A DNA stretch of 64,000 nucleotides from positions 194,021-258,020 of the forward strand of contig WELB01000002.1 in NCBI GenBank assembly GCA_009602725.1, in the 5' to 3' direction. The notes beneath the pieces are model-generated. The model ran no database searches. It was not told the origin of the DNA and was given only the letters and a program-made list of their open reading frames with translations. Source of the stretch: Spirogloea muscicola (taxonomy: Eukaryota). Numbering within the stretch: the stretch's first letter is position 1; each line of letters begins with the position of its first letter. Made by a program: the position numbers and the translations under genes. This document shows positions 115 through 61,466 of the stretch, piece after piece.

Positions 115-3100
115 CCATAGACTTTGCCGAAACCCCCTGTACCAATTATGTGATTGTCATTGAAGTTATCAGTTGCAGCCATGAGCTCCTCAAATGTGAA
201 GGGACCGTGGAGTCTATCCTTAGTGCTGGACATCTCAGAGCAGAAGCTCTCAATGCTCCGCTCCTTGTCAGTCATAGTCTTGTCCTTCCTAAGAGCTAAG
301 CAACAGAGCAGGAGAAAGCCCAACAACAGGAGGAGAAGGAGGGCAACAGCCCCAATGACAATGCCGGCAATCGCTCCCCCTGATAAGCTCGACGACTTGT
401 GCTTTGCAGGTGGTGGGGAGGGAGGAAGAGAGCGAGGTGGGGGAGCTGTCTTGCAGGCCAGATAAGGGCCGCCACATAAGGCTGCATTTCCAGAAAAGGA
501 GCTGCTGTTGTATTGACCGATAGAACCGCCAGGAATGGACCCACTGAGGTTGTTGTTGGAGACATTGAAGAAAAGAGTGAGATTCAAGTTGGCAAAGGAC
601 GCCGGGATGCTGCCATTGAGTCTATTGCTCGAAAGGTCGAGATAGGTCAGCGCCGTTAGATTGCCAATGCCATCTGGAATAGGCCCGCTGAACGAGTTGT
701 TTGCAGCCGAAAAGGCAACGAGCTTGCTCAAATCTCCAATCTCAGAGGGGAGGCTGCCCGTTAGGTGGTTGCTGGAGATGTCAAAATACTGAACATTCTG
801 CAGATTCCGGATGCTTGCAGGTACTCCTCCAGTAAAGTTGTTATGATTAAGGAAGATAGTCAATGCGCTGCTCAGGTTGCCAAGCCACTCTGGAAATGGA
901 CCAGAAAATTCGTTGCTTTCAATTATTAGCACTTGCAGATTCTCAAAGTTGGAGAAGGTTGACGGAATTGGGCCAGAAAGGTTGTTGCCAGCAAACCAGA
1001 GCTGGGTCAGCAGCACAAGTCTCCCCAACTCGGACGGCAGCTGGCCACTTAACCTGCCAAAATCAGCCGTGTGAGCTGCAAACTGTCAGTGGGCTGCAGC
1101 TTGTCCGCAAACCATGTGTCTCCAGGCAAGGGATGGGGGATGGCTACACCACAGGGATGGCTGCAATCACATTTCAGCACCTGTTGAGGCTCAGGTCCAG
1201 GTTGATCATTCCCCTGCAATCAGCAAGCTCTGGTGGCACTCCACCCTCCAAGCTGACACCAAGTGAGCATTTCAGCGGGGTCAACAAGGACCTATCAAGT
1301 CGAACTAACATGGAGTGCAGACAGAAAAGCAGGGATACTATCAATGGCCTGCCACTCCAGGTTTGACGGCAATTCACAGAAAAGAAAACATGGACATCTG
1401 CAGTCACACATTGTAAATCCTTGGGCCCGGGACCTTTCGTCTCTATTACCTGTTGTTTCTTGCAACAAAATTGAACAGATTAGGCAGCTCCCCAAGCTCT
1501 CGCGGTATTTCGCCAACCAAGCTGCAGATGCAAATGCAGAGTGCCACCTCATTGGGCATAAGTCCTTGAGAAATATCTTGGCTACGATGCAGACCAGGAA
1601 AGAGTCCTAGACGGCCTAAGTAAGAGCTTCTATGAAGCTACTTGAAGATGCTTTGATTTTGGAAGATGGAATCATGCTGACCAGTAAAATAACAGACATG
1701 GGCAGCAGGGAAGATCCTCACAAGTTGGAACTCAGGCTCAGGAACTGGAGCTTTTTGCACTTGCTTAAGTGCTTTGGAATTGGGCCAGATAGACTGTGAG
1801 CGAAGGGGCAAAGTTTGTAAGAAATAAAGCACCAACATTGTAGTGGCTGCTAGAATGCTGATGTATTCTCAAATTACTCAGGGAACCATGATCAGTCAAA
1901 TCCAAGGTCCAGTACTTCTACAAGCGAGTCAGGGGGAGAGCCCACTTGTTGACTTGCAAGAAGAGACGTGTCAAGTTGGCCAAGTCGCCATACGAGGGAG
2001 GGATGGGCCCACTGAGACTGTGAAAGAGCTTCGAGCCAGAGTGAGCAGCATTCCCACTAGATTTTATTGCCACAAGCACGGTTCTGACGGGTGTACTTAC
2101 AATACTTTGGTATAGCCCATTCGTGGCTATACCAACAGTAACAGACAATGTCTGTCTATTACTGTAGTCTTAGGAACAACATCTCTGTTGCATCGGACAC
2201 ATTCGCTACATGACTGCTAGAGGCAGATAAGTTGCACACAAGAGGAGATGACATGCCAAATAAGTGGACATTGATGTGGCATCACCAAGAATGACAACCT
2301 GACAATCAATGAAAGGTCATGTGCTTATGCCAGAAACGTAGTACCTGTTGCTCTGAAGGTCAAGCGTGCCAAGTGCCTTACATTGACTGAGCTCTGGTGG
2401 GAGGCTGCCTGATAAGCTGCAGGGTGGACCATGCAAATCAATGGCCGCTTGAGAAACAAGACTCTTATTTCGTGCCTTCATGTCCACATGCTAGTCAACT
2501 ACAGATCAAGCTTGGATCCTAGGTTCTTGACTGTAGGCTATTGATGATGTAGAGTCCAATAGAGCTGGACATACCTGTTATTAGCAGCCAAGAACGAGTA
2601 CAAGCTGGTAAGGTTGCCATATTCAGGTGGAATAGCACCAGAAACACTGTTGACCAAGTGCTGTCACAGAGATCAGCTTTCCAAGATGGCCGCCAAAGCA
2701 TATGATCCAAGCTTTAGCATATCATGCAGCATATGTGACCAGAACCAGATTATGCTGCAAAGGCAGCATGATTGCGTACTGGTTGTTGTCGAGCTCTAGA
2801 TTGGTCAAATTTCGGCAATTGCCAAGTGCTGGTGGTAAGGGGCCTGTCAGCCTGTACAAGCACGCGTCACATGTATCCTCTCAAATGACATGCATCAAGC
2901 TGACTGTATGATGCAGGGGAGCACTCTCAATGACAAACAAATGCATGATGCCACAGGCCAGCCACATCTTCACAAGAGCTTCAAGAGGCCTTCAGCACGC
3001 TGGAGTACTTGTTATTGGAGAGGAGAAGATATTTGAGAGTGCCACTCTTGCCAAGCTCGGCGGGCAGGCTTCCAGATATACTGCAAGGCACCAGCAAGGG

Positions 3101-6100
3101 GAGGTCATTATCAGGGGGGTTTCTTGAGATTGGCCGGCTGTAAGTATTGACTTACTGGTATGGCTGTGGATAAGAAGCAGTACAGAGCTCAGCATAAGCA
3201 TATTATTGGATCACTTACTGATTATCAGATATCCACAGAGATTGTAAGCGGGACAAATTTGCCAGCGAAGCAGGAAACTCTCCAGTCAGCCTGCAGTGTG
3301 GAGTAATGCTTGACCTTTAAGTTGCACAAACATGCAGCACCATTCCAGGCGCACTGGGATCCCAAATGCAATCTTCTGGGACCAACAACTCGAATGTGGC
3401 CAGCACCCGTGTGCAAATCAGATGTGACTCTTACGCACATAAACAGCAATTAGCTTTCTCCCAGACTGGGCAGCTACTGTTTCGTGACATGACATTCACA
3501 AGAGGACAAGCAAGGAGGCCTACATGGCTAACGCTTGGGCAAAGGGCGATTTAGCCTACTGATTGTCGTTAGCAATGAGAAAGCTGAGATCGGCACAGTT
3601 CCCCAGCTCCGACGGCAAGGAACCAGAAAGGCTGCATCTCAAAGTGAAGCAAGCATTTGCGTCACGTGATAAGCACCCTCTGCAAAATTCCAACTGATGA
3701 CTAGTTTGCTCAAAGATTTGACACTACAACAAGTTGGTGATGTCAAGCTTACTGTATGCTGGCGACACGCCTGCATTGATGCCTAATGCGCTATGCATAG
3801 CAACACGGTGCTAGCATTATCTTGGTCTGACTTACTTGTTGTAACCAATGGCCAAGTTAGTCAACAACTGAAGATTGCCAATGCTTGTAGGAATCACTCC
3901 CGTCAATCTGTAAATGCAAGACAATTACAGGCCATTGGCAGTTGTGCCAACAGGTCCATCGAGGACCTGCCTTGAGATATGACATTTTCTTCCTGCTAAC
4001 TTGTGCACAACTGACGCATGGTCTCATATGCTGCTCAGAGCGAGGTGAGAGCTGACCTGTTATTGGATGCATCCATGGCTGACAATGTGGTGCAATTTCC
4101 AATCGTGTCAGGAATGCTGCCTGTAAGACTGTCATTTTGCCATCAAGAGAAGGAGATCAGTATGCTGATTTCCTAGTATATAGTGTAGTTTGCCATCTGC
4201 TTGTGTATGAAAATTATGTTATGCCTCACAAGAACAGCCGTGAGGAGTGAAGCCCTTACTTGTTTTGGTTGAGCTCCAGCAACTGCAGCTTGTCATTGTT
4301 GAAAAGCTCTGGGGGAATCATGCCTGTGAGCCTGCAACAGCGACGCACAAGATGGTTAGTTGATGTGATGATCAATGTAACACCTGTGACGACATAACAT
4401 CAGAGGATGAACTTTTAAGAGAAAGTCACGGACCGAAAACATATATCATTGTGTCCTGCCTGCTCTGCCACACACTGAAAATTTGATAACAGGTGCATAA
4501 CAGAAGAAGAAGGAAAACAAATGCAGCTCCAGTAGGAGCTTCACGTGGTGATTGAACCTGTTCCAACCTACGCCCAGGTTCACGATGTTGTTTCCCCCAA
4601 GCTTTGGCGGAATCGTTCCCGTAAGCCTGCACATGGCAAATTTGGTATATGCATTCAGCAGGCCAATGCACTAGCTGCTGATTTATGACAAACAAATATC
4701 GTGCTTGTAACAATTGGAAGCAATTTCCACGACAATGTCACAGTGGCAACCTCTTCTGATTGAGCTCAAAGATACTTGCAAATACATGGCCAAACATGTT
4801 GATGGGGATGATGGCACCTATTCATGTCAAGGTCAAGAGTTACAAGTCTGGTGAAGTTCCCAAACTCAGGTGGCACCTCTCCTGTAAACCTGCCCAAAGC
4901 ACACAGGATGCTCAGAGACGGATCTGCCTCTATCCTTACTCGCGTGTCTCCAAGTTCAGTGTTTTCCTCGTTGAAGAGAAGCTAGATTGTCAAGGATCGC
5001 ATTCAGGAATGCGACAAGAGTAGAATTCGAGCTCAAAATTAGTCACTCACTCATTGGCTCCCAGGAACAGCACTTGCAAGTCTGCAAGCCTGCTCAGTGA
5101 TGCTGGCAGCGAGCCATTCAAGCTGCCAATCAACCAGCATCAGCGGTCACAAATAGGTCCAATCCTTGAGGCGATCCTTGTCTAGGACAGGCCCCCCGAG
5201 CTATAATTTGATCAGCACTTGCTTATTACAAGTAGCAGCGATCCATACCTGTTGCCTCGTAGGCTGAGAGATTGCAGCTGGGCACACTCTCCAAATCCGG
5301 GTGGCAGAGGACCTGATAAACTGCAGTAGCATGCCAAGGCCACCATCAGCAGATGGCTGGAGCGTGAGTTTCGAAGACGACAACACAGCAGCAAGGCATA
5401 GTGGTAAATGAGATGCAGCATGAGATGCATGTCGAAGACTTTTATGGGGGGCTCCTCCAATGAACTGGCTATTGTGAACAGTCTGAAGGCAGGAAGCAGT
5501 GATGACTGACCTACAATAAGCAGCAAAGAAGTTCTGCAACTCCAGCAAGTTGCCGACTGTGCTTGGAATCTGGCCAGAAAAGCTGTGACAGCAGAGAATG
5601 AAGCCTTTGACAAATTTTAAGTAACTTGCAGTCCAGTCTTTAGTTTGAGCAAATTGCATTGATAGCACAAAAGCACCAGAGAAGGACATGATTCAGCGAG
5701 CCGCATACAGAACATCAACGACGACGAACACCTCTCTTTAGATAAACACTAAAAGACATAGGAAAGGTAGAGCTCGTTGCCTCACCTGTTATTACTTAAG
5801 TACACATCTGTGAGATATATGCAGTCCCCTAATGTTGCTGGAAGCGGGCCCGATAACCTGTAGCCAAAGATGAGTCACAATGACCAGTGTTTGAGATGGA
5901 AATTACACGAAGCATGTCACCTATACATTGCACGAAGCATGTCCTCTACCTTGTCAGTCAACAAACACTCGTTGGTAGCATGGGAAGTGGAGAAACAACA
6001 ACAGTCAGCCCACACGACCTCACCTATTGACATCAAGAGACAACTGAGACAGCCTGCTATCAGGGCCACAGAGTTCAGGAGGAAACACGCCCTCCAACCT

Positions 6101-9100
6101 GAGAGACACATTATCAGCAAGTGGCTATTGCCTTCAGAGGTTGGATCCAGCTGCTTCGATACAGGCTGCGTATGCCTTTCCTCACTACATGTGACATGAC
6201 TTTGATCAAGCCTCAGCTGACAACATTTCTCATCAAGCAAACGCATTTGCTGAGGTCTGTCAGAAATGTACATGTTATTGCTGAGGCTCAGATCAACCAG
6301 GGAGGTCCTTCCCAGCTCAGCAGGTATAGCGCCTGTCAAGCTGGCAACATACAGGGACTTCCATGGATCAGGCATCAGCTGCTCTTACATGGCACAGCCA
6401 CAGTTGCATGGCCCAACCTTGCCACCTGCAGCACAAGGGGCTTCGGGGTCTTGGCGCTGCCTTGTATAGCCTACTTTGATACTGATCAGATTGTGCGAGC
6501 GAGAGATGACTGCATACTTGTTGTTCTGGGCAAAGAAGACTGTAAAATTAGCCGATTGTCCAAACTCCTTCGGAATGGGTCCTGTCAGACTGGACATTCC
6601 AGGAAGTCACACAAACAAAGACATCATCATGCAGCCTCAGAAGGAAGGAGTGCAACAAGCTGGAATGGTGGTGCTTTGGACTGGTGCTTTGTGAAATGCA
6701 GTGGGATTCTTACAAAGTGTCTCACCTGTTGTTCTGCACATAAAGGAGCTCAATCTGAGGCGTCGCAAGCTCCACAGGGATGGCCCCAGTCAACCTAGAG
6801 TCAAGTGCTATGCATCAGAGCATCTGTAACGGAGGACCCCAAACGTGCAGAGATAGCACCAGCCATGAATAGTAAACCCAATACTGTAAATGCCATCCTC
6901 TCCAGGACAGATGCTGTGAAGGTATGTCTAAGCAGTGCATTCAAAGATCTTATACAGCTCCACAACACACCTGTTAAAAGAGATCTCGAGACCAAGGAGC
7001 TGCGAGCAATTTCCAAGCGCAGACGGTATGCTTCCTGACAGCCTGGACGTCAAGAATAGAGACAAACATATGTAAGATGTGCAGCTGCTGGCAAAAGATA
7101 CATATTGCTAACATAATCTTTAAGTGCCTTCGAGAAAATGCAGACAACAGAAGAGTGCATTGGTAGTAAGTGGTAGTAAGCATGGCAGCAGCGTGCATTA
7201 TTCGAAAGTGACAGCACCCAACAGTTACAGGTCAACATGATACTGCCTCTTCATAAGCCCCACCTTATAAGCCCCAAGCTACTAATGACCAAGCAAATGT
7301 GCATTTTGTGATTACTGTACTTACTGATTGCCTGCAAGGGACAGATACTGGAGGGCCTGATTGTGGCCAAGCTGAGAAGGGATGGGTCCTCTGAGCCTGA
7401 ATGCAAGCGAAGACTGCTCTTGAGCAACCACCCAGCTGATTGCCTTCAGTGCTTCGTGTTATCAGTCATCAACGATGCCCTTAACGTGCTAAGAGGAATT
7501 GGACGAGAGAAGCAAACACAGCATCACTCAGATGATCAACTCCACGATTTACACACCCACTAAGACAATCTGATCCTGCACACGTACCTGTTGTAGTTCA
7601 AATACAGATTCCTGAGGCTCAGAGATTCTCCGAATTCGCCTGGCACTTTCCCAGCGAGGCTGCACACTTGGGGAACATTGCAATTCTAAGTCACTAGCTG
7701 GAAGCAGTGGGGGCAGAGGGCAGGCACATCACAGCATCCATATCCTCATCTCTGATTTGAGGATGGAGTACTACAAGGACCTGTTGTTTGTCAAGTACAG
7801 CTCCTCCAGGAGCGGAAGCCCAGCAAGACTGACAGGGATGGGGCCTGTCAATCTGCACAAGGACAACAGCATTATAGTCATTCCTGAAATTTCGGCACAA
7901 GCATGAAGGCAACTGAGATTGAGGAGCCCTATGACAAAAGTGATACAACATGCAAAGCTGTTTGAAGCTAATGAATGAAGGAGCTCGTTCACAGCGGTCC
8001 CGGAACAAAAGGCAGGCATCAATTTCAACATTCAGTGAAAGCTCCAAGATGATGGGTTGGCTATAGTGCAGGATGCCAAAGTCATAGTGAGGTGAAGTCT
8101 TTGAGACTGTATAGAGAATCTCAGATATGCTCTTCGTGACTGTCTTATGCTGACCCAGCTGGCAGGCATGCTATTAGAAGAGCGCTTATCCTAGCCTGAG
8201 CAAAGAGTGTGTCTTTGTGTGCATTCACCTGTTGTATCCAAGTGAGAGAACCTGCAGGTTGAGCATCTGTCGAAGCTCAGAAGGTATTGCGCCGGAGAGC
8301 CTGTAGCTCCAAGAATATTTGTACATCAAGGCGCCTGATTCCAGGACTGATCACTAATCTCACATGTTACAGTGCACAAATTTGGCGCATTTATGGATGA
8401 TGTGGCCCCAACTCACCCGTTGTATGCCAGATACACACTCGTCAGGCCTTGCGACATCCCAAACTCACGAGGGATGGAGCCACTCAGGCTGTCCCACACA
8501 ACCTGCTCAATGTTGTTAAGATACCCTCCACAAGCATGGGCAGGCAGAGGATGTTCTTCACACGGAGAAGCAGATGTTGTTTACATGGAGAAGCAAATTG
8601 CTCATAATAAGGCACTAACTGTAGTCCTTGCAGCAGCCTTGATTTGACCTTGCAGGCGGCCTTGAGATGCAAACTGAGCAAGCGACTGACCTGTTGTTGG
8701 TCAGGTACAACTGCACAAGATTGGGAAGCGAAGCCACGCTGGCAGGGATGGAGCCCGTCAGCCTGTGCCAAGAAGCCAAGCCCAGAGTTGGGCCTTCTTG
8801 CGTGCAAGCGCCGCCGCTCACCGGCGGCGCCAAGCTAGCAACTCAAACCACATCAACGTCTTGCAGACTGCAAGGTAGTCGCAGTTGACAAAGCTTCCTA
8901 GCAGCTCAATCTCTCGGCATGGCCTGGCTCAACCGCAGATTCAGAAGCCTTTCAAGCCTACTCAAGTTGGTATGCATGCAGGGCAAGCTGGCTCGGTGAT
9001 GTCACGGGCGGAGAATGCACAGCGTCTCAAGCATGCACGGGTGGTGAGAGGTGAGTACGTGTTGTTGAAAAGGTAGAGGCCCAGGAGGGAGGACAGGTTT

Positions 9101-10203
9101 CCGAGCTCCTCTGGGATCGGACCTGACAGCCTGCCGACGTGAAAGAACTTAAGAGCACCTCACGCTTAATTGCACTCGAAGAAGCAGCTTCATAACCAAG
9201 GGTGCAGCTGCGAGCGCTGCCGCCTCATCAGCTAGCCCACGAATTCAGCAATGTGGGGTTTGCCTCAAGGTGGCTTGAAATCCGGCTACGCAAAAACCTT
9301 GTGCACGCACACCCCCCAGGAGAGCCTTTTTGTCAACTAGCAAAGGGACGAAGTATCGCTCTTCTGTAACGATTGCCTGGAATGAGATTTGGGCAATGCA
9401 GACCTGTTATCACTGAGGGAGAGTATGCGAAGGTTGGAGAGCCTGCCCAGCGCTGCGGGGATGGGGCCCGAGAGCAGGTTGTCGTTCAGAAGTATGTAGC
9501 GCAGATTTCCAACGTCGCCGAGCTCCGGCGCCAGCGCGCCTTCCAGCAGCGTCCCGGAGACGTTGAGCCCAATCACCTGCCTGCAAGCAGACGCCGCGGC
9601 CAGCGGTTGAAGGCGCTGAGCTCGAGCTGGCCTCGTCAACCCAAGCTCCAGAGGAGCCCGCGACGGCGCTGCTGGTCCAGAGGCCCTCCGCCAAGCCGCC
9701 GCTGGCAGCCGCTGCCGTCGGCACTGGCGGGAGGCCGCCGAAAAGGCCCGCCTTGCAGGACCGCGACGCCGCCAACACCTGTGCTTATCGCTCGATACGT
9801 GGCAGCGGAGCTCGCGGCAGGCCGGGCTCGAGACGAGGCTCTTGCCTGGGACGGCCGGGCGCCGTGGCATTGCAGACGACGCCGAACCAGCCGCAGGGCG
9901 TGCCGTCGGCGGGGCGCCAGTCGGCGAGCGCGCCGAAGGGGTCGACGGTGATCCCAGCCTTGAAGGCCAGCAGCGCGGCCTTGTCGGAGCTGTGGACGGC
10001 GGAGGAGACGACGGCAGTCATTCAGGCGAGGCGCCGAGCGCGCCGCCAGCCACGCAGCGGCGGCGCCGGATGGTCATGCCGCCGCTGCAGGAGCCCGGCG
10101 ATCAAATGGCTGTGGCAGAAGGCCGGGAATTGCCAACGGGGCGGGGCGCTCACGCGAGGCTCCCGGCGACGGCGCCGAGGCACGCCAGCAGCGCGGCGGC
10201 GGN
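115..10203 (-). CDS. LRR receptor-like kinase paralog A (multi-exon; kinase continues beyond the window start; ATG probably lost in the N gap at 10203)
   Basis: Signal-peptide exon end (..AALLACLGAVAGSLA|GTGAGC, ~10154). LRRNT exon ~9846-9989 (SDKAALLAFKAGIT..W..CGWFGVVC). Two-LRR exon ~9404-9580. About 31 single-LRR exons with AG/GT ends (e.g. 1181-1252, 1450-1521, 1722-1793, 1946-2017, 2345-2416, 2575-2646, 2780-2851, 3009-3080 ... 9059-9130). Open exon 115-1053 encodes ~7 LRRs, GNAALCG cap, Pro-rich stalk, TM helix (GAIAGIVIGAVALLLLLLLGFLLLCCL) and GTGGFGKVY. Confidence 0.92.
10203..10203. other. Assembly gap (single N) inside a (GGC)n tract in exon 1 of gene A
   Basis: Literal N; the start codon seen at this position in paralogs B, C and E is absent. 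Confidence 0.85.
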
Positions 10204-11330: not shown

Positions 11331-12329
11331 ACCACTCAAAGCTCGTCCAGCCTTCTCTTGCAAAGCACGAGCCTGAGCTCACAAGAATTGACACCCTCCT
11401 CACCGTGAGAGCCGCTGAAGGCTCGCAGTCATAGTAGGTAAGAAGAAGGCCAAACAAGGCACCAGGTGATGAGACGGGCTCTGTGGGATAGCCTGCTGTG
11501 CACACGTTGACAGACCTGCTGCCGCGGCTCGGAGGATCGTCCTGAGCATTGGCAGCCTTGCCTCGCCCACACGACCGTCATGGTGATTACCAATTCCCTG
11601 TTTCACATGCAGACATGCACTTGGCGTGCAGTATGCGCACCCCAGCGTCTTTCTGAGATCAAGTCACTTCTCTCCCCTTCAATTGGGTCTCCATTGATTT
11701 GCTTTTTTGCTACTTCCTCTTTCTACACCGCTGATCAATGTCAAGCAGTGCGTAAGGTATCTACAGATCGCTTTCACAAAGTTAACGACTATGATGGTAT
11801 GATTGGTGGTTCTTTGCCGAGTAGCCATTGCTGCAGACTGGGTAAGACACGTGTGCGATGCACTGGCCATTTTGCTACTGGGACGCCCATGGGCTTACTG
11901 CCAAGCCTAGAGGGCTGGCTCTCCTCTTGAGACATAGTTCGGTCTCACTCCCACTTACTCTCCTGCTCCGTCTCCAACTTTCTTCAGTTTCTGCCACCTC
12001 GTTTATTCTGCTCGCTATTAACAATGTCTCTCCCTCTGCCTCCCCTCGGTCCTTCCCCCACTCGCTCGACTTCTCTGTGCCTCACAGTCTCTGCTTCTCC
12101 CTATCGTGCTACACACGGTCAGCAAGGCAAACAAAGCCAGGGAGCCATGCACATGGACCCCTGGTGATTAATTGCACTAATGTTGCAACATCAAACCTCT
12201 ACTATCAGGCGTCTCATATGAGTCATCGTTGTTTGCAAGGTTCTCAGGTATAAAATTATTACGAGATAAGCAGGACTTAATGGGTGGCCATCTGTCTCTC
12301 TGAAAAGGTCAACACAGCACCTTAGGAGG

Positions 12330-39779: not shown

Positions 39780-40070
39780 AGATCTTAGCTATGCCGCCAG
39801 TGACTTGCTGCCATGTACATACTTGCAAAGACCCTGGCATGCTTCACCAAGTCCAGCAACTCGTCAAGGTTTGGGCGGAATCAATGTCTTTCTTGGTGGC
39901 CTGGGGCCTCTTAGGCGCCGGAAGTGGCACGCAAGAGTGCCAGTGAGCCGTCCGGTATTGGAGCCTAGAGCTCCACAGAGGTCAGCCGGAGAGTGCATGT
40001 GGTAGCGCCGGTGTCGACGAGGACATGAAAGAAGGGCTTTTGCTGCCTACTGAACATGCACATCACCGAT
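39780..40070 (-). mobile_element. Decayed Ty3/Gypsy-like pol remnant, copy 2
   Basis: KPFFHVLVDTGATTC in ORF 39965-40366, followed by LDELLDLVKHARVFASMYMAASHWRH. Confidence 0.65.
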
Positions 40071-45529: not shown

Positions 45530-48500
45530 CGCAAAGGGAAGAAGGGAGGCAACCTGGTGCCAGCAATCGAGAAAGGCTGCCTGCGCCGTCTGTTCAAGTG
45601 ACCGGCAGCCCAGGCCGCCCATTCGTGTGGGAAGGGATGCCTGCAGGGAGGATGAAGGTGAGGGGAAGGATGGGTGTTGAATCAGGGAAGCCAGGGTTTG
45701 CCGGAGGGAGGTGTCGAACTCCTTGTACAGCTCGCCCACCATGTCCGTTGGGGCAACCGTTCGCTGCAGGTAGCCAGCTCGTTGGCCGATGCAGCGAGTA
45801 AGGATGGCCAGCGCCAGCTGCGGATCTCCGAGGAGGGGAAGGGAGGGAAGGGGGGCAAGGTGTTGCTGAAGACGTTCAAGTAAGTCCTCCGCAACGTGGG
45901 ATGGAGTGCCAAGGGGAACTTTGAGAACAGCCAGCCCATCGGCAGGGGTCTGGCAGCCTGGTGGGAGCTGGAGGTTGGTGGGGAGGCAGTGTGGTGACCA
46001 TGCCACGTTCTTGGTGGGGCAAACCCGCAGGCCCAATGTGCTCAGTTCGTGTACGAGCAAGGGATAAGCCGCCATGACTTCTGACGGTGGGCCGACGATA
46101 TGTGTGTCGTCTGCGTAGGAGGGGAAGAGGAGGTTGGGGTGCAGGCTTCGGGTGCGCCGTAGTGCTCGGGAATGTGCCAAGGCGAAAAGTATGGGGCTGA
46201 GGGAATCTCCCTGGCGTGTGCCAGTTGTGGACCATAAGGTCGTCCAAGACTCCTCCGAACGCCACAGCAGCCGCCCTGGCCGGCCATAGGCCATGAGGAA
46301 ACAGGGAATTAAGGAGGGGAAGTGATCACGCAACTCCTCCATGATGGCGTTGCGCTCCACAGTGTTGAATGCATTGGCTATGTCCAATCCAAGGACCATG
46401 TGTGATGGGTTGACATCCAGCGCTGCGCGGATCCCGTGGACGAGGGCCTCTGCCCCGCAGGACATGCCAGCACCAAATTGGTGGGGTGCAAAATGGGTGG
46501 ACAGCTGGGACTTTAGCTCGCCGCACAAAGCCTTGGTCACCAGCCGCATTATTACGTCCGTCATGGCGATGGGCCTGACACCACCTGACAGCTTGGCCAG
46601 GGCCAGCAGGTGGCTGAAGTTGAGAGCGTCGGCGATGCGGGGGGGGATGGTGGCTCTGGTGATGTGCCGGCAGGTGGAGAGGAGCAGAGAGAAGCTTCTT
46701 TCGTCTCCATTTTGGAAGATGTCCCGTAGGTGCTCGAAGAGCCATCCAGAAGGGCCTCCAGACACCATTCGGGGGCTTTGGTGTGGGGGCGAGGCCGTCG
46801 TCCACGGGGTCCGTGCAACCTTGGACCAGCACCCGGGCTGGCTGGTGCTTGCCGTCGACGTGGCAAACGCCTTCAACACCGTGGAGCGCGCCTGCATTGC
46901 GGAGGAGCTCCGGGCCTCCTTCCCCTCCCTGGTCCCCTTTTTCCGCTTGGGGTACGGTCAGCCCAGCGACCTCCTCTGGCGGACAGGGGGTGATCAGGTG
47001 GAGGTCCTGCAGTCCCGCTCGGGCACGCGGCAAGGGGACCCCCTCGCCGGCTTCTTCTTTGCGCTCGCGCACAACCGGGCTCTGCAGGCTACCGCAGCGG
47101 CCCACCCAGGCGTCCTACTCCCCACGTTCGCGGACGACACCACCATAGTCGGCCCTCCGGAAGACGTGGCGGCGGCCTTCGTCACTTTCAAGCTGCAGCT
47201 GGCCACCCTCGGCCTGTCCACCCGGGCGTCGAAGTGCACGGCTTGGTCTCCCTGCCCTTTCCCACCGACCCTGACGCTGCCCAGCGGATGCCAGACTCCA
47301 GCAGATGGCTTCACCCTGCTGGGGGTCCCCATCGGCACGCCGTCCTTCGTGGAGGGGCAGCTGCGAGCCCGCCTTGCGGAGCACCTTCTGCCTGCGGCCC
47401 GGCTTCCCGAGCTGGACGATATGCAGCTGTCATTGGCCATGTTGACCAAGGCTATCGGGCAGCGGCCCCAGTACTTGACGCGGGCCACCCCGCCGTCCCC
47501 AGAGGCGTTGGCGGTGTACAAGGACTTCGACGCAGGCATGGTGGCGAGCTTGGCGGCCCTGGTCCGCCACCCGGGCTTCCTACAGTCGCCAGCCGCTATC
47601 CACCAGGCGGCGCTACCCCTCAGCCACGGGGGTCTCGGCCTGCGCCCGCTCGTCCGTTCGTGCCGGGCTGCGTACCTCGGCAGCTGGGCGCAGGCTGCCG
47701 CCTCCGTGGCCCAGCGCTTCATGGTCCACGGCCGGCGTGCACTGGAGCAGGCGGTGGTGGAGGTCGACACGGGCGCGCTGCCGTTCCAGGAGTCGCTTCG
47801 CTCCGCCCACCAGGAGCTGCTCGCGGCGCACCCGGACCTGGCGGGCCAGGCGGTCTCCTTTGCGCACCTCGCGCACACCGCTGACCTGCGCGTCCAAGCG
47901 CGCTTCGCGGCCGTGGTGGACAAGGCCGCCTACACCACCGCCGTGCTGCAGCTCCCCGAGGCCGACCTGCGCGGGCGCGCGAGACTCCACTCGGCCTCTT
48001 CCCCGGGAGCAGCGGCGTGGCTCCAGGCCCTCCCACTCAACGACGCCCTCGCCCTCCCGGACGAGGTCTTCCGGAGCGCCGTCCACAGGCTCCTCGGCCT
48101 GCTGCCGCCATGCCTCCAGGGCGTCCGTCAATGTGAGTGCGGTGAGCGCGGGGCCGAGCAGGGGAGCTGGCTGCGCACGTTCTGCGCTGCTCGCACGGCG
48201 GCGAGCGGACAGCGGCCCATGACCGCCTCCGGGACGCCATGCATGGCATCCTGGTGGAGGCGGGCTTCTCCGTGGCTGCGGAGCACTCCGGCGTCATGCC
48301 GCTCCAGGACAGGGCCGACGGTCTCCACGCCCGTCGTGTTGACCTGGTGGCCACCCCTCAAGCTGGTGGGCCACATCTCCTCCTGGACGTGGTGACTACC
48401 GACGCATTCGACCGCTCCCACCCAGCCCAGTGTGCCACCAAGGCTGGGTACGCGGTCGCCTGCGCCGCTCGGGCAAAAGAACTGAAGTACGCTGACCATC

Positions 48501-52298: not shown

Positions 52299-55200
52299 TC
52301 ACTCGGTGGCAACGAGTGATTTAGGAAATGTCAACCCAGCACCAAATGCTCCGAGATTCTGGAGCATCTCAACCACGTCAATCATTGTTGGCCTTTCTTT
52401 TGGAATATCGGAGCAGCAAAGTAGCCCCAATCTCAAGGCGCCCCGGATTTCGTCCACTTTGTGGGGAACGAATGGAGCTAGCACAATATCAACGCACTCC
52501 AAAGGCTTCTCGTGGCGAAGGCAGGATCGCACCCACGAGATCAAGTTGCCACCAGTTGCAACTTCAGTCTGAAAGAAAGGGTCAACAGGCCGTTTGCCAA
52601 TGACAGTCTCGAGAAGCATCACTCCAAAACTGAAAACATCGCTGTATGTAGTCAGTTGGCCTAGGGCGTAGTCTGGACCGATATACCCGACTGTGCCTGT
52701 CAATGTGCATCATCGTGACACGTCATAAGTTGGAGGAGAGATGACTCATGATCATTGCCAGGCAGTCTGAGGTGCCTCTACCAGCATCAATGCACACATC
52801 CTTCTTGCACGACGCCATAAAGGCCTACGATACAGCTCAACGAACATAGGAGGGCATCGGGAGTTACCTGCAGCCATGGTTGACACGTGCGTGTCATGTG
52901 CCTGAAAGGTCCGTGCAAGCCCAAAATCCGCCATGTACCCTTGACCATGTTCATCCAACAAGGTGTTGCTTGGCTTGACGTCCCTATGTAGCACCCGAGG
53001 TTTGCACTCGTGATGCAGGTACTTAAGCCCAACTGCTGCACCCAACATGACCTTCTTACGTGCAGCCCAGTGATCAAACCCTTCTGGCTTTGGAGGCACG
53101 CCATTTCCCCCGTGCACCAATTGGTCAAGATTTCCGCCTGGCAAGAATGGATAGATGAGCAGCATGTCCACGTCGCTGTCCTTAGGAATGTACCAGCCCC
53201 GTAGCGGGACCAGATTGCGGTGATGGATGCGACTCAATACCTCCACCTCAGCTTTCACCGATCTCAGTCCTTGCTTGTTATCTGGCGCTAGCTTCTTCAC
53301 TGCATACTTTTGCCCGTCCTTCATCTGCGCACTGCTCAGCATTTTGCATCGTAATGAGGTTTTTCATAGGATAAGAAGAGCCATGTTATAATTAGATGAC
53401 CGGGACAACAAGCTACAAGAAGACCACCGCTTGCAAGCAGGGCAATGTACGTACATATAGACTTTTCCAAAGCCGCCCTCTCCAATAATGTGGTTGTTGT
53501 TGAAATCCTCAGTTGCGTCCATGAGCTCCTCGTAGGTGAAGGGACCTTGGAGTCTGTCCTTAGTGATGGACATCTCGGAGCAGAAGCTCTCAATGCTACG
53601 CTCCTTCTCTGTCATACTTTTGTCCTTCTTCCGACCTAAGCAACACAGCAGGAGAAGTCCCAGCAACAGGAGGAGAAGGAGGACAACAGCCACAACAACA
53701 ATGCCGGCAATTGCCCCCCCTGATAAGCTCGACGACTTGTGCTCCGGTGGTGGGGGAGGAGGAAGAGAAGGAGGTGGGGGAGCTGGCTTGCAGGCCACGT
53801 AAGGGCCGCCACACAAGGCGGCATTGCCAGAGAAGGAGCTGCNAATGAGTTGCTTGCGGCCGAAAATGCAATGAGCTTGCTTAACTCTCCAATTTCCACA
53901 GGGAGACTTCCACTTAGGCGGTTGTTGGAGATGTCAAGTTCTTGAACGTTTTGCAGACTCCGAATGCTCACAGGTACTCCTCCGGTCATGTTGTTGTGAC
54001 CTAGAAAAATACTCAATGCACTGCTTAGGTTGCCAAGCCACTGTGGGAATGGGCCAGAGAAAGTGTTACTGTCCACGTTCAGGAATTCCAAGTTCGCCAG
54101 GTTGGAGAAGGTTGCCGGGATCGGTCCAGAGAAATTGTTGCCACGAAGCCAGAGCTCGTCGAGCTGGGCAAGTCTCCCCAACTGAGGCGGCACGTGGCCA
54201 CTTAACCTGCCAGTATTTGCGAGTGAGCCGCTAAGTGACAATGCCTGCTGTGACTCGTCTGCAATTTATGTATCTGCTGACATGGTTACTCAGGCAAGCA
54301 TTGGCTCCAATGAAGACGCAGTCCTAGCTCAGCACCTGTTGTAGCTCAGGTCCAGGGTGACCATTGCCGTGCAACTCGCAAGCTCTGGTGGCACTCCACC
54401 CTCCAAGCTGACACCAATCGAGCATTTGATAGTGGGTGATCTGACACCTGCAAGGTCGACCTCATATGTAGCACAGACTGCAACAGCACGCTAAATCCAG
54501 TTGGCCTTACACTGCAGGCGTAATGAAAATCATTAGCGATTGCAACTATCTACAGTCTCATGCTATAATCCGCTGCCGAGTCTCAGACTTTTTCTTCTAT
54601 CACCTGTTATTGCTTGCCGCAAAGTCGAGGAGATTAATCAGCTCCCCAAACTCTTGCGGAATGCCTCCAACAAGCCTGCCATGTTCAATATGCAGAGTGC
54701 CACCTCATCAGCTATTAGGGTTGGTGTTGAACTGATTGTGGACAATTGAAAAGTTCTTGGAATGCTGCACCGAGAGTGAAATCTAGAGCCACATACATAT
54801 GCCTGCTTGAGAAACTGAATTCTTGCAAGTCACCCAAGCAGTTGACATGGGCGGCAAGAAACCCCTTACAGATTGAAGCTCAGGTCCAGGTGCCGGAGCT
54901 TTTTGCACTTGCTTAGCTGCTTCGGTATGCGGCCCGATAATCTGTGATTGGTACAGGAGGAAGGGCTTATAAAACAATGCCGTGGCAGCCGACTATGATG
55001 ATTTGTATCCTGACTTCATGGAAGGTAGCATGGAAACTGTCAGGTTCAAGATTCTTCAATGCCAAAGATTAGTCAACAACAAAGAAGTAATACCCACTTG
55101 TTGGAATACAAGAAGAGGGCTGACAAGTTAGCCAAGTTGCCATATGAAGGAGGGATGGGCCCGCTGAGTCTGTGGAAACGGTATGAAAGACTGTGAGCAG

Positions 55201-58200
55201 CCTTCTCACAGGTTGCACAAGCACGAAGAATGTGATATGCAGTATAATACGTCAGCAGAGCCCCACTGTTGTGACAGACTTCTATTACTGCAGAATCAGT
55301 AATAGATGTGCAACGTGTTTATATCATGGTTTTCTTAGTCAAAAGACTGAACACATGGGGTATCAATACAACACTGTAGCAGAGCCCCACTGTCTCTGAC
55401 ACACTTGCAAGACTGCAGGCTTAGACAGTGAATGACTATGTCCATCTAATCAGATCACACTGCACAAAAGAGGGATAGTTACAAGCCAAACAAGTTGTAC
55501 ACTGACAGCTGGTCGTGAGATGATTGAAGGGACGACCTCTGCAAGAGCAATTTCTCTGGCTACATGAGCAATACCTATTTCTCTGAAGGTTGAGCGCGCC
55601 AAGTGCCTTACAGTGACTCAGTTCTGGTGGGAGGCTACCACTTAAGCTGCGCAAGAGACCATGCAATAGCACGGCCGCTTGAAACATCTGCTTGGCGGTC
55701 CTGTGCCTCCTTGGTAGGTTGCTTCAGGTCCACATGCTAGTGTTACATCCAGGCTGAGATTGCAAGGTCTCAATTGCGGTACTTCTTGTACTCTGTCAAT
55801 CAGTAGAGCTAGTCATACCTGTTACCATGTGCCAAGAGGGAGTACATGCTGGTAAGATTGCCAAATCCAGGCGGAATTGTACCAGTAAAGCTGTTGATCA
55901 AGCACACTCACCCAAATTAGCTTCTCGAGATGGTACAAGCTGCATGATGATTTAGGGCTGTGCTTGATGTGCAGCATTGTGACATAAAATTGAAGAGAAA
56001 AGGCGCAGGACTGCGCACCTGTTGTCATTAAGCTCAAGGTTTGTCAGATTCTGGCAATTGCCAATTGCTGGTGGCAGGGAGCCTGTCAGCCTGCTCAGGT
56101 ATGTGTCAGATCAGATTTCTCCCAGACAACATGCATCAAGCAGACCTCAATATGCACGGGAGCAGACTTCGTGGAAAACTTAGACATACAGCTGTGTGCC
56201 AGCCACACCGTCACACTACTTTGAGGAGGAGTGCAGTATTGAGAGTACTTGTTGTTGTAGAGGATAAGCTGAGTGAGAGTTCCACTTATCCCAAGCTCGG
56301 CGGGCAGGCTTCCAGATATACTGCAGGGCGGCAGCACGCAGGGGTTGTTCATGATTGGTGGGCTTAGACTTTGCATTCTCCGTGTTGTTGCAGACTACCA
56401 GCAGTAAATAGTTTGCCACGTATGTATGTGGCACTTACCAATTATTCGAAATGACAAGGACCTGTAGAAGGGACAGGTTCGCCAGTGAAGCGGGGAACTC
56501 CCCGCTTAATCTGCAACAGGTTGTAAGGCCATTGAGATGCCATTGAGATGCACAGCAGTGTCGCATTAGCTTCAAAAGCGCAATGCAACTCTCTGAGAGC
56601 AGCGAATCCAATGTGGCCAGCACTCTGTGCACAAGTAAGAGTCAGCTCCCTTATGAATTGGGAGCTTGTTGCGCAAGATGACCTGCACGTAGGAACAGCA
56701 GAGCAGGCCTGATGCTTGAAATTTGGGCAAAAGGCATATTGGAGCTCACTGGTTGTCGTTTACATAGAGATTGCTGAGATTGGCGCAGTTTCCCAGCTCT
56801 GACGGTAAGGGACCAGTAAGGCTGCGTCGCAACGAAGAGCTTCAACAACCGTCCACCTCCTCTATAGCTTCGTAACTGACGACCACTTCATCAATCAGAC
56901 ACTCACGATTTGAGTTGATGTTGTCAAGCTCACTGTGTCTTAAGGACTCTCCTTGCAATGATCCCTCGATGCGCTACGCACGGCAACATTCTGCTAAGCC
57001 TGTCTTGCTCTTACTTACTTATTGCTCCCCAAACGTAACAAAGTCAACATTTGAAGATTGCCAATGCTTGAAGGTATGAGTCCCGTCAATCTGAATGCAA
57101 GACAAGTGTGCCATTCAAGCTGCCAATCGAAGCAGTCTCAAATGGCCTCAAAACAGGACTACGCCGTGAGGAGAATGTTGTTAATGACATGGCCTCAACA
57201 GTCAAAATCAGCGATGTGTTACTTACAAGTAGCAGCACTACATACCTGTTACCCGCGAGGTTGAGATATCTCAGCTTGGCACAATCTCCAAAGTCAGATG
57301 GCAGGGGACCTGACAGACTGCAGCAGGAAGCCAAGGCCGCCCTCAGCCTTTTGTGACCTGAGTATGAGTGTGCTGAAGAGCACCCAGCAACAGGAGCAGA
57401 GCTCTGTGACAACAAAGATGTGGCATGAGAATTTTGAGAACATATATCTGGCTCTTCTAAGGTAGCAGTGGCCGTTAACGAACAGTCCTAGAGAAGGAGA
57501 CCGGATGACTGACCTACAATACGCGGCGGAGAAGTACTGCAGCTCTTGCAAGTTGCCAACTGTGCTTGGTATCGGACCAGAGAATCTGCAACAGATCATA
57601 CCGTTCTCACTGAGGCCTCTGACAATATCCAGTCAGATTCTTCAGTCTTTTGAAGTAAGCAAAGCTAGAGGTGAATGTGGAAGACAAAGGGTAGGGAGAG
57701 CACGTGGCCTCACCTGTTGTTACTCAAGAATACCGAGGTGAGATTTGTGCAGTCCCCTAATGCTGCTGGAAGTGGGCCCGAAAACCTTGGCCAAAAAGGA
57801 GTCACATTGACAGATTACCAATTTGGCATGGCAATACAAGAGAGCAATGCAACCTCTTCATGGCAACCGCCAAAAGAAGCATGAGAAGGGTGGGAACAAT
57901 GACAGCCAGCCCATGTGACCTCACCCATTGTACTCGAGGAAGAGACCAATCAATCTGTTACCCAGGCCACATAGTTCAGGAGGAAGCATGCCTTCCAACC
58001 TGGAGGGACCATGTCATCAGCAGATGGCATTTGCTACCGAGGGATGATCCAGCTGCTTTGATCAAGGCTGCATGATGCAAACTTTCACTGTGTGTGATGT
58101 TTACTACAGGGAAATTGAGCTGATGACACCTATTAAACAAAAACATGCATCTACAGAGGTCTATCAGGAACATACAAATTATTGCCGAGGCTCAAACCGA

Positions 58201-61200
58201 TCAGGGAGGTCCTTCCCAGCTCAGCAGGGATAGTGCCTGTCAGGCTGAACAAATACAGAGGACATCACTATCACATCATCACTGTAATAGCACAGCGCTA
58301 CTCATACGGCACAGCGCTTGCAACATCTGCACCATGAGGGGCTTCAGGGTCTTGGCAATGCCAATAATAGCATGATTTGCCTGTGCTAGATCAAACAGTG
58401 CAACCGAGAAGTCAGCATGTTCTGCAAGAAGGTTGCATACTTGTTATTGTATGCGTAGAAGATTGTGAGATTGACTAGTTGACCAAATTCCTTCGGGATA
58501 GGTCCTGTCAGACTGAGAACCCACAATGCCACACAAGCAAACACGTCACAATTGCAGCCTCAGGAAGCAAATAGTGCAGCAAGCTGGCAACAAGACTGGC
58601 AACTTAATGTCACAGTGGCTAACAATCTGCAAGCATTTACCTGTTGTTGTAGACATTGAGGAACTCAATCCGGGTCATCGCAAGCTCCACAGGCATGACC
58701 CCAACCAACCTAGACCAGCGTCAAGCAATGTCAAAGAGCAACTCTACTGAAGAAAGCCAAGGAGATAACACAGGAAAGAAGGTCTAGCTACAGTGTTGTG
58801 TCATCCTCCTCTACCAAGATGGATGCTGCAAAGCCACCAGACCACGCAGACTAAGCAGAGTGACCAATAGTCTTCTATGCTCTGCAGCACACCTGTTGAA
58901 AGAGACGTCGAGAGTAAGAAGCTGCGAGCAATTCCCGAGCGCAGATGGTATGTTTCCTGACAGCCTGCACAGGAAGGTTAATCACCAATGTATGCAAGCC
59001 ACCGTGACCTTGCAGTGTATCCAAAGTGACCATTAGTCTTTCATGCTCTACAGCGCACCTGTTTAAGGAGACGTTGAGACCAAGGAGCTGCGAGCAATTT
59101 CCGAGCTCAGATGGTATGCTTCCTGATAGCCTGGACAGGAAGGATAGTCACCAATGTTTGCAAGAAGTGTTACAGCTGGCAGTAAGTGGCAAGTTGCATG
59201 TCCTAGCCCCTGCATGCCTTCACTTCATTGCTGACGACAGCAAAGTGCAATGGTAGTAGGTGCAGCCGCACAATGAATATCTGGAGAGATGACAGCACCA
59301 AAGTGACATATCCCATTTTACATGGCTCTTCACAAAAGAGATGTCTGACGACATAAAGAGGCCCCAATCCTGAGGCTACCTCAGGATGTGCCTTCCTTCA
59401 ACAATTATACTTACTGATTGTCTGCGAGTGACAAATACTGGAGGACCTGGTTCTGGCCAAGCTGAGAAGGAATATGTCCTGTGAGCCTGACATCAGTAGC
59501 AGAGACTTTCCTTGAGCAACCAGCCAGCTGGTTGCTCTAGCTGCCTTGTGTTATCAGCTATTGACACTGCACTGTACGCGTCGGCAGTATCATTGGAATT
59601 GGAGACGAGATGGAGAAGCAGAATTCGCAGCAGTCAGCCTACAAATTCACCAACTCCTCAGACAACCAATGATCCTGGCAACCCACCTATTGGAGTCCAA
59701 GTATAGTTTTTGGAGGCTCCGAGATTCTCCAAATTCACCCGGCACTTGTCCCGTGAGCCTGCACATGTGGCCTTGTCAGAACCCAACTCATGGAGTGGAA
59801 GCGGCATGAGCAGAGGGCAGTGTGCCCATCACGACTTCCACAACCACATCTCCATCCTGAGAACAGAGTTCTACAGGGACCTGTTGCTCGTCAAAAACAG
59901 CAACTCCAGGAGCGGAAGCCCAGCCAGACCGAGAGGTATGGCTCCTGTAAATCTGCACAACGAAAGGTGACATTGTGGGCGCTCCCTAGAATGTCAACAC
60001 AATCAAGGCCATTGCACCAGGCTGCAAGAACCTCGACAGTTGACGGAGCTTCATAGAAGCTTGACTTCATAGCACTGCCAGGCTCAATCGAGGCTTCAGA
60101 AGCTTGTCTAGCTTGCTTAAAAGCTTGGCGATTGATAGTCATGCAGAGCAGACTGGCTGTTATTGTTGCGAACAGTGTACAGTGTCTCCAGCATGCAAAG
60201 TTGGTGTGCGTTCAGTACGTGTTATTGGAGAGGTCGAGGCCCTGGATGGCGGAGAGGTTCCCGAGCTCCTCTGGTAGAGGACCTGACAGCCTGCCGAAGT
60301 ACAAGAAGACTGAGAGCTCGACCCAGTAGATGGCTCTTGAAGTCGCAATTCTGTGACGAAGTGCTGCCGCCTCGTCGGCTAAACGTTGTACCACAGTCAT
60401 AACGGCCTTGCCTCAGGGAGGCTACACTACCAATCAGCCAAGCAACTTCACTGTGGACTCAGGCCCCCCAGGAGATGTGATATCGAGAAAAGGTGGAGGC
60501 TCACGTTTTCTTTGTAAACAGGTTGTGAGATGCGAATCGAGCAACTTAGGTATGCTAACCTGTTGTTTCCGAGGAGGAGGAATCGAAGAATAAAGAGACT
60601 GCCCAGCGCCGCTGGGATGGGCCCCGTGAGCAGATTGTCATTTAAGAGTATGAACTGGAGGCTGTCAATGTTGCCGAGCTCCGGTGCCAGCGTGCCTTTC
60701 AGCAGCATAGAAGATACATTGAGCTCAATCACTTGCCTGCACATGGACATCAGTGGCCAGCTGTGCAGGAAGCTGAGCTTACTGAAGGCTTGACCCCAAG
60801 CAGAGCTTCCCAGTGAGCTTGCAACGACGCTGCTCTTACACAAGCCCTCCGCCGAGCAAGCCCAGGCAGCCATTGCCGTTGGTCCTGGCGAGAGGCCGCA
60901 AAGGCTGCGGCCCTTGCATGGCCACAACCTCAACAGCAGCTGCCGCCAGGGCTACCAAGCTTGTGCCGGTCGCTTGACACGTTGCAAGGCCAGCTCCCGC
61001 TTTAACTGGGCAATGGTCAAAGCTCTTGCCTGTGGCCGCCAGGTGCTATGGCATTGCACACAACGCCGTACCAGCCGCACGGTGTGAGGTCGGCTGGGCG
61101 CCAATTGGCAAGCGCGCCAAATGGGTCACTGGTTATGCCGGCCTTGAAGGCCAGCAGCCAGGCCTTGTCGGAGCTGCGGAATGGAACGATGGTAGTCAGC

Positions 61201-61466
61201 GGGCGGGGCTGTTGGAGGCCACACACCACGGGCATGGCGATGGAATGCATGCTACCGCAGAAGCCCAGCGGCAAATGTGGCAGATAAGAATGCGGCTGCG
61301 GATATCAAAAGAGCGGCTGTAAAAGCCAGCCAGATGCATTCAGAGGGTAAGAGGGTGACAGGTTACGAGCGAGGACTGCTCACGCGAGGCCGCCGGCGGT
61401 GAAGCCGACACAAGTCAGCATAGCGACCGCAACAAGCAGGGGGGCGGCGGCTGCCATGGCTGCCAT
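52299..61466 (-). CDS. LRR-RLK paralog E, apparently intact apart from an assembly gap
   Basis: Exon 1 61384-61466 (MAAMAAAAPLLVAVAMLTCVGFTAGGLA). LRRNT ~61030-61173. Exon ~60560-60736. 24 single-LRR exons (54336-60290). Large exon 53455-54206. Open kinase exons 52868-53331 (HRDVKPSN, DFGLAR) and 52299-52696. Confidence 0.9.
53843..53843. other. Assembly gap (single N) replacing about 185 nt of the large exon of gene E
   Basis: The flanks match gene C at 23950 and 24136; the intervening sequence is absent. Confidence 0.85.

What the first reader, a model, noticed from the sequence alone, without database searches (positions are those of the whole stretch)
115..61466. Modular 'accordion' LRR-RLK repertoire built from one-LRR symmetric exons
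Seen: nearly every LRR is a 72-nt (69/75) exon with phase-2 introns on both sides, so any exon can be added, removed or skipped in frame. The five paralogs share signal, LRRNT and LRR-cap/TM/kinase exons but carry different LRR strings: A ~31, B 3, C ~31 in a different combination, D >=5, E 24. E lacks the equivalents of A exons ~4057-5122 and ~8229-8762. C lacks several of them but duplicates an 8-exon block. Known: ERECTA-family genes have one-LRR exons with a stable number, and exon-shuffled LRR/TPR repertoires were proposed for brown-algal ROCO/NB-ARC genes. Inference: this is a rapidly recombining, immune-like receptor repertoire in a plant-lineage RLK family.
Basis: partly seen in the sequence, partly recalled or inferred. 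Interest (0 to 1): 0.88.

Follow-up and report, generated by a model that had tools for sequence, protein, structure and literature searches.

The report
Algal receptor genes with stretchable repeats
In a green alga from the sister group of land plants, five neighbouring receptor-kinase genes carry most of their sensor repeats one per small exon and differ by blocks of lost or doubled exons, but three of the five are broken and the one shown to be expressed splices its 31 repeat exons in order, so this is likely a birth-and-death receptor family rather than a mix-and-match immune repertoire.

Summary
Five tandem LRR receptor-kinase genes of Spirogloea muscicola (named record) hold 92 one-LRR exons of 69/72/75 nt, all phase 2-2, none on the + strand. 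Using A's exons 1-31 as labels, every copy keeps the same order and differs only by losses and tandem duplications. Junctions lie in introns or leave exon stubs. A (about 40 LRRs) is transcribed, and contig lengths fit inclusion of all 31 exons. E is open but untested. The concave face drifts at dN/dS about 1, against 0.3 on the convex face; positive selection is not shown. New: the introns sit six codons from the land-plant position, in a kinase lineage near intron-poor LRR-X/XV, so modularity likely arose again. One-LRR exons with shuffling are already in print for rice, brown algae and Tetrahymena. This scan noted the same layout before in fungal and protist DNA, not this family. An immune role is not shown; the kinase is RD type.

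The parts
115..10203 (-). Gene A: signal exon (ends 10154; start lost at the N, 10203), LRRNT exon 9989-9846 (GC donor), 2-3-LRR exon 9580-9404, 31 one-LRR exons 9130-1181, cap exon 1053-115 (7 LRRs, C-cap, Pro-rich linker, TM, kinase start). The rest of the kinase lies beyond the window start. About 40 LRRs; intact and expressed.
1181..9130 (-). A's 31 one-LRR exons (labels 1-31). Introns are 116-376 nt, median 177. Mean pairwise exon identity is 51% and the highest is 72%, so the array is old and not homogenised.
12320..18186 (-). Gene B, pseudogene: signal exon at 18186, retroelement remnant in intron 1, LRR exons 1, 27 and 31 only (intronic junctions), frameshifts and stops in cap, TM and kinase.
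22429..33449 (-). Gene C, recent pseudogene by sequence: string (1*),5,7,8,8,(9*),10-14,20,21,21,22-25,13,14,20-25,26-31. It has 30 intact one-LRR exons, a lost exon-1 acceptor, a 1-nt insertion in exon 9 and a 1-nt deletion in the cap exon near 24452. The kinase is still open.
26238..30038 (-). Tandem duplication in C of the 8-exon block 13,14,20-25 (copies 30038-28013 and 27944-26238; extra exon 21 in the first copy). The junction is in an intron at about 27980; dS between copies is 0.13.
25842..26244 (-). Likely gene-conversion tract shared by C and E around exon 26. Introns are 128/128 and 170/172 identical, against 77-94% in the other 10 introns compared; there is a 198-nt perfect run (longest in 2000 shuffles: 115).
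41813..45529 (-). Gene D, pseudogene: cut in exon 26 by a retroelement, exons 27-31 remain, frameshifts in the cap exon and the last kinase exon.
46326..48392 (+). Reverse-transcriptase ORF (Pfam RVT_1) of a retroelement family lying between the genes; related pieces cut D and sit in B's first intron.
52299..61466 (-). Gene E: string 1,5,6,7,8,8,9-15,21-31 (24 one-LRR exons). The frame is open apart from an assembly gap at 53843. Its kinase part is the annotated 340-aa protein SM000002S05509. Expression untested.
57090..57125 (-). E's deletion junction: the acceptor and first bases of exon 16 are fused to the end of the intron before exon 21. The old acceptor lies 29 nt upstream, out of frame. 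The junction is also seen in contigs of two DNA runs.
   Evidence: (table 5c)

Best explanation
This is a tandem cluster of a Spirogloea LRR receptor-kinase family whose middle sensor repeats each sit on one symmetric phase-2 exon, and whose copies likely lose or double blocks of repeats by illegitimate recombination in introns while the reading frame survives. Shown: the exon layout, the unchanged order, the 10 loss or duplication events, the exon stubs at three junctions, three broken copies, and expression of A. Inferred: the ancestor had an A-like 31-exon string; duplicates are born in tandem, change LRR number and concave-face residues, exchange short tracts by gene conversion, and mostly die. 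Inferred from plant LRR-RLK biology: the receptor binds an extracellular ligand on the concave face and signals through an RD kinase, with the fixed last 7 LRRs as the likely co-receptor side. The most likely role is sensing variable outside molecules (microbial or neighbour-derived; about 45%), with diversity fixed in the germline rather than made by splicing.
For: All 64 non-A exons scored map to one A exon, in colinear order. Stubs of exons 16 (E), 15 and 6 (C) prove loss; the other junctions are intronic. dN/dS by position: A-E core 0.07, convex 0.27, concave 0.83; E-C core 0.15-0.20, convex 0.31, concave 1.06; kinase 0.28. Concave exceeds convex (p 9e-12 for A-E; 3e-4 on the E and C branches). 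C's branch was still constrained (core 0.15, convex 0.27, kinase exon 0.38), and its block copies carry 6 and 5 private synonymous changes, so the duplication likely arose while C still worked. RNA-like run X5 has spliced contigs with 0 differences to A; the 1652-nt and 557-nt contigs fit exons 8-31 and 1-8 with none skipped. Ten X5 contigs are 90-95% alike to A, so other paralogs are likely transcribed; one joins an exon-13 type to exon 21. Annotated paralog kinases lie on two other scaffolds.
Against: Only 3 of 10 events separate genes that are open today (A against E), and E's expression and splicing are untested. The concave dN/dS intervals include 1 (E-C 0.68-1.62; C copies 0.99-2.83), so relaxed constraint explains them as well as positive selection. 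The kinase is RD type and its nearest land-plant relatives (RPK2, PSKR, BRI1) are mainly developmental. The direction of the exon 2-4 difference is not settled. X5 is only guessed to be RNA, though it holds GT-AG joints that the DNA runs lack. Only one assembly and one strain-identical sample set were seen.
Confidence: 0.68

Rival explanations
1. One conserved developmental or physiological receptor (A) throws off tandem duplicates that simply decay; the symmetric exons only make the decay look orderly.
For: 3 of 5 copies are frameshifted. Losses outnumber gains 7 to 3. A's array is old. The kinase is RD type and close to BRI1, PSKR and RPK2. Concave dN/dS is not above 1.
Against: The E and C branches show purifying selection on core, convex face and kinase. 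Non-A paralog contigs are spliced in X5, one with a shortened string. E keeps an open frame.
Confidence: 0.18
2. A combinatorial receptor system: each gene would make many receptors by skipping LRR exons, as reported for brown-algal ROCO genes, perhaps with an immune role.
For: Any skip keeps the frame; only 1 of 48 observed end/start combinations makes a stop. An RNA contig joins an exon-13 type to exon 21, a junction absent from the five genes.
Against: The two long A contigs fit full inclusion. The 13-to-21 contig differs from E's exon 13 at 2 of 23 letters and from A's at 10, so it is likely another paralog with its own deletion. No spare or inverted LRR exons lie in the introns. Contigs drop rare variants, so this is not excluded.
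Confidence: 0.1
3. The differences in exon number are errors of a short-read assembly.
For: There are two N gaps inside genes, and one near-identical tract between C and E.
Against: Contigs of run X1 cover A from 1 to 10200, apart from 841-869, with 0 differences in 7 of 8 listed pieces. E's deletion junction appears in contigs of X1 and X4 at single-copy depth (the same sample as the likely source, so not independent material). C's block copies differ by dS 0.13. C and E share the 1-to-5 junction and the exon-8 duplication. C itself was not checked against reads.
Confidence: 0.04

Closest known systems
Land-plant LRR-RLKs with one-LRR exons: ERECTA/XIII-2, SERK, SYMRK, rice group 5, VIII-2 (PMC3050792, PMC5296948)
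   Same: 72-nt (also 69/75-nt) phase-2 exons, each one LRR, in an LRR-TM-kinase gene. Exon duplication and shuffling were already proposed for rice; VIII-2 has variable introns.
   Different: Their introns split the first Leu of xxLxLxx; here the intron splits the residue after the Asn, six codons later. ERECTA's 26 introns are fixed from moss to rice; here copy number changes among young paralogs. About 40 LRRs in A against 31 in GSO1 and 29 in FLS2 (PMC10868138).
LRR-X (PSKR, BRI1, EMS1) and LRR-XV (RPK1/RPK2) receptor kinases
   Same: Best kinase matches (42-48% over kinase exon 2; BRI1 best in PDB). In the tree the kinase joins RPK2 and two long rows at 95/90, with PSKR as sister.
   Different: These subfamilies are mostly intronless (76% and 83% of genes, PMC5296948) and have island domains; none was seen in A's regular string. 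No orthology is shown.
Brown-algal LRR-ROCO genes (PMC3341825, PMC11378527)
   Same: 72-nt phase-2 one-LRR exons, different LRR number in young duplicates, pseudogenes, fast concave sites.
   Different: ROCO proteins are intracellular GTPases, with spare and inverted LRR exons, intergenic import and reported splice variants; none of these was seen here. Their type I boundary is two codons later. Ectocarpus LRR-kinases showed no shuffling, whereas here a kinase family changes exon number.
[quoted passage not shown]
   Same: Phase-2 one-repeat exons, variable exon number among inparalogs, retroelements nearby.
   Different: Thousands of genes with scrambled exon order and retroelements inside the repeat units; here the order is kept and no retroelement lies between one-LRR exons.

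Membership tests
Plant LRR-RLK (RLK/Pelle) | Signal peptide, LRRNT Cys pair, plant-type LRRs, C-cap Cys pair, one TM helix, kinase in one gene | tested here: met
   RNA joins signal to LRRNT, LRRNT to LRR exon, and cap to kinase exon in A
Plant LRR-RLK (RLK/Pelle) | Catalytic residues (Gly loop, Lys, HRD, DFG) | tested here: met
   P0042 has GEGGFG, AVKK, HRDVKPSN and DFG; the APE motif reads GPD. Activity itself is untested.
ERECTA / land-plant one-LRR-exon RLKs | Intron at the first Leu of xxLxLxx, phase 2 | tested here: not met
   All 92 exons start at LxGxIP and end after N; land-plant position from PMC3050792
ERECTA / LRR-XIII | Kinase falls in clade XIII | tested here: inconclusive
   No ERECTA-named protein among the best 120 of 688 hits, but no XIII row was in the tree
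LRR-X / LRR-XV | Kinase inside the clade | tested here: inconclusive
   Unresolved fork with RPK2 and two long rows, 95/90; long branch; no XI, XII, XIII or BRI1-named rows
LRR-X / LRR-XV | Intronless or nearly intronless gene | tested here: not met
   A has over 35 introns; subfamily norm from PMC5296948
Pattern-recognition RLKs (FLS2/EFR/XA21 type, XII) | Non-RD kinase (rule recalled; its paper seen only as a reference title) | tested here: not met
   HRD present in E, C and D
Pattern-recognition RLKs (FLS2/EFR/XA21 type, XII) | Positive selection on concave LRR residues | tested here: inconclusive
   Concave dN/dS 0.83-1.8 with bootstrap intervals that include 1; one post-hoc branch test p 0.02
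Pattern-recognition RLKs (FLS2/EFR/XA21 type, XII) | Binds a microbial ligand and triggers defence | not testable with these tools
   needs bench work
ROCO-type exon-shuffled repertoire | Spare or inverted LRR exons in introns; reordered or imported exons | tested here: not met
   0 + strand exons; only 2 short, weak + strand hits among 3786 tblastn lines; all strings colinear
ROCO-type exon-shuffled repertoire | Alternative splicing of LRR exons | tested here: inconclusive
   A's long contigs fit full inclusion; one 13-to-21 join from a non-A copy; 32 joints not shown; contigs drop rare forms

The most novel reading that the evidence does not exclude
The algal sister group of land plants has independently re-modularised an LRR-X/XV-like receptor kinase at a new intron position, and uses it as a genome-wide, fast-turning non-self receptor repertoire of perhaps 10-30 copies with up to about 40 LRRs. 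Length and ligand face would vary between copies and strains, possibly also by exon skipping, and most of it is missing from the public annotation.
Probability: 0.25. Interest if true: 0.75.

Novelty: new variant of a known kind. Interest (0 to 1): 0.46.

Why it matters
Receptor inventories of Zygnematophyceae are used to infer what the first land plants could sense, and they rest on automated gene models. Here E is annotated as a bare 340-aa kinase, and my searches returned no annotated model for the expressed 40-LRR gene A, so such counts may miss large LRR receptors. The new intron position is a further case of phase-2 one-LRR exons arising separately, and the young paralogs with exon stubs show how LRR number changes step by step. 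If ligands turn out to be microbial, this would be an algal route to receptor diversity that runs parallel to land-plant LRR-XII.

Tried and rejected
No whole genome is held, so the family could not be counted. Summed contig depth over A's cap/TM region is up to about 20 times single-copy depth; this is a hint only, not a copy number. The 50%-representative search with the kinase was swamped by multi-kinase proteins: the best 150 of 580,078 hits held no single-kinase relative above about 45%, and the 52% hit is a repeated kinase fragment from Tagetes. This is weak evidence that the family is lineage-specific. The cap-exon search listed no Spirogloea family member among the best 120 of 6773; long LRR proteins crowd it. 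The metagenome scan for exons in this register gave 20 loci, and 20 of 20 lie inside long intronless ORFs. The pattern catches only 20 of the window's 92 exons and I had no positive control, so this is weak evidence that the register is rare. Unequal crossing-over between LRR coding units was rejected as the main route: no exon showed a clean switch of 5' and 3' halves, and junctions are intronic or leave stubs. Retroelement-driven exon transport was rejected: none lies between one-LRR exons. No fold or complex was run, since no single exon would answer the question. Paper searches listed no description of this family; subscription papers (Gong and Han 2021, Dievart 2020, Cheng 2019) and all supplements were not seen. 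Scan look-ups by place and by sequence found nothing. PMC9292849 passages gave nothing usable.

Full report
Observation. A scan for AG-exon-GT units that read as one plant-type LRR found 92 on the - strand and none on the + strand: 83 of 72 nt, 6 of 69 nt, 3 of 75 nt. Each begins with one base, encodes LxGxIPxxLxxLxxLxxLxLxxN, and ends with two bases, so both flanking introns are phase 2. A strict pattern matches 20 times against 0.00 by chance in 100 shuffles.

Source. E's kinase exon is 100% identical to SM000002S05509, which EukProt lists as Spirogloea muscicola, a zygnematophyte alga. That model covers only the 340-aa intracellular part. Related kinases lie on scaffolds s404 (91% over the exon) and s22.

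Exon strings. With A's exons as labels 1-31: E = 1,5,6,7,8,8,9-15,21-31; C = (1*),5,7,8,8,(9*),10-14,20,21,21,22-25,13,14,20-25,26-31; B = 1,27,31; D = part of 26, then 27-31 (64 exons scored, best matches 61-92%). I count 10 copy-number events. Seven are losses: 2-4 in C and E (direction open), 16-20 in E, 15-19, 6 and the exon-1 acceptor in C, and 2-26 and 28-30 in B. Three are tandem duplications: 8 in C and E, 21 in C, and the 8-exon block in C. Order is never changed. A's own exons are only 51% alike on average, so its array is old.

Junctions. E keeps the acceptor and first bases of exon 16 fused to the intron end before exon 21. C keeps 26 nt of exon 15 and 18 nt of exon 6. The other junctions lie in introns. 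These are non-homologous breaks that splicing can tolerate because all exons are symmetric (inference). E's old acceptor lies 29 nt upstream of exon 21 and would shift the frame if used.

Which copies are alive. B has stops and frameshifts. D is cut by a retroelement (Pfam RVT_1) and frameshifted. C has a 1-nt deletion in its cap exon and a 1-nt insertion in exon 9. So 3 of 5 are pseudogenes by sequence. C died late: its branch shows dN/dS 0.15 (core), 0.27 (convex) and 0.38 (kinase exon), and its duplicated blocks are nearly as old as the C-E split. E is open apart from an assembly gap.

Expression and assembly. Of 5 runs listed, I laid X5, X1 and X4 on A. X5 gives contigs with GT-AG joints and 0 differences from A in the pieces listed. 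A 1652-nt contig places exon 12 at 1314-1388, which fits all of exons 13-30 (1293 nt plus 22 nt); the remainder fits exons 9-11 and part of 8. A 557-nt contig fits exons 1-7 and part of 8. The all-exon reading rests on lengths, since 32 joints were not shown. Of 24 X5 contigs laid, 12 are 99% or more alike and 10 are 90-95% alike. One loose end matches the end of an exon-13 type (21 of 23 letters to E's, 13 to A's) joined to exon 21, so an expressed copy outside these five likely has yet another string. X1 contigs cover A except 841-869, and E's deletion junction occurs in X1 and X4 contigs at single-copy depth. These runs may be the source sample. E and C were not tested for expression.

Selection. 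Nei-Gojobori counts on orthologous exons: A-E (23 pairs, dS 0.57) core 0.07-0.08, convex 0.27, concave 0.83 (95% 0.59-1.16); E-C (19 pairs, dS 0.18) core 0.15-0.20, convex 0.31, concave 1.06 (0.68-1.62); C block copies (8 pairs) core 0.38-0.75, convex 0.71, concave 1.8 (0.99-2.83); kinase 0.28. The concave face changes much faster than the convex, but dN/dS above 1 is not established. The one branch test at p 0.02 was chosen after seeing the data and lies in a now-dead gene. A tract around exon 26 is almost identical in C and E, introns included, which suggests gene conversion; local collapse in assembly is not excluded.

Kinase. It is an RD kinase. The best named hits are RPK2, PSKR1 and PERK at 42-48%, and BRI1 is best in the PDB. 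A 34-row tree places it on a long branch in an unresolved fork with RPK2 and two long rows (95/90), sister to PSKR. Rows were picked by hand from the hits; XI, XII and XIII were absent.

Comparison with print. In rice, ERECTA, SERK and SYMRK the LRR introns split the first Leu of xxLxLxx in phase 2, and exon duplication and shuffling were already proposed (PMC3050792, abstract and passages). Subfamilies X and XV are mostly intronless, XIII-2 keeps 26 introns, and VIII-2 varies (PMC5296948, passages and section 11). Ectocarpus type I exons end at NxLx and type II use the land-plant register; its kinases showed no shuffling (PMC3341825, passages and section 15). ROCO splice variants are reported (PMC11378527, passages). 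Tetrahymena has scrambled 90-bp exon arrays (PMC6564038, passages). The register here is six codons after the land-plant one and two before Ectocarpus type I. Half of the exons (46 of 92) end in AG, and intronless plant LRRs can carry AG|GT at this site, so a proto-splice origin is plausible (inference). Spirogloea LRR-RLKs with over 20 LRRs were used as an outgroup in PMC8462819 (passages), 142 RLKs are counted for the species (PMC10868138, passages), and SERKs are reported in Zygnematophyceae (10.1101/2023.07.04.547604, passages). Searches listed no account of this family; key subscription papers and supplements were not seen.

Verdict. It is a real and well-resolved accordion in a plant-lineage receptor kinase, with an apparently new intron register and a very long expressed member. 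It is germline loss and duplication in a birth-and-death family, not demonstrated shuffling, splicing diversity or immunity. New variant of a known kind; interest 0.46.

Noticed in passing
window 9846-9580; also about 61029, 32923, 16227: The intron after the LRRNT exon has a GC donor in A, E, C and B; RNA contigs confirm the join in A.
   Followed up: yes
window 52700-52660 and paralogs: Kinase subdomain VIII reads GYIGPDY instead of the usual GYxAPEY in E and C (GPDC in D); the effect on activity is unknown.
   Followed up: no
window 45284-45333: A 25-nt tandem duplication copies the acceptor of D's exon 27.
   Followed up: partly
window 16447-17940, 34370-38880, 45524-49000, 61670-63950: Several pieces of a GC-rich non-LTR-type retroelement family with a C-terminal endonuclease-like region (type recalled, CRE/SLACS-like); one ORF hits RVT_1.
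   Followed up: partly
window 20272-25622 and 39703-45035: The 5.4-kb 3' ends of C and D, with downstream flank, are 82% identical, which marks the tandem duplication unit.
   Followed up: no
P0043 (SM000404S15665): The annotated model fuses a NAC domain, another kinase and a kinase of this family, without LRRs; likely a merged gene model hiding another family member.
   Followed up: no
P0060 (SM000416S15663): A second Spirogloea LRR-RLK with many LRRs, 1264 aa over 8.3 kb and only 38% alike in the kinase; its intron register could not be read.
   Followed up: no
window 9104-9432: A low-depth unspliced X5 contig spans an intron of A: pre-mRNA, intron retention or DNA carry-over.
   Followed up: no
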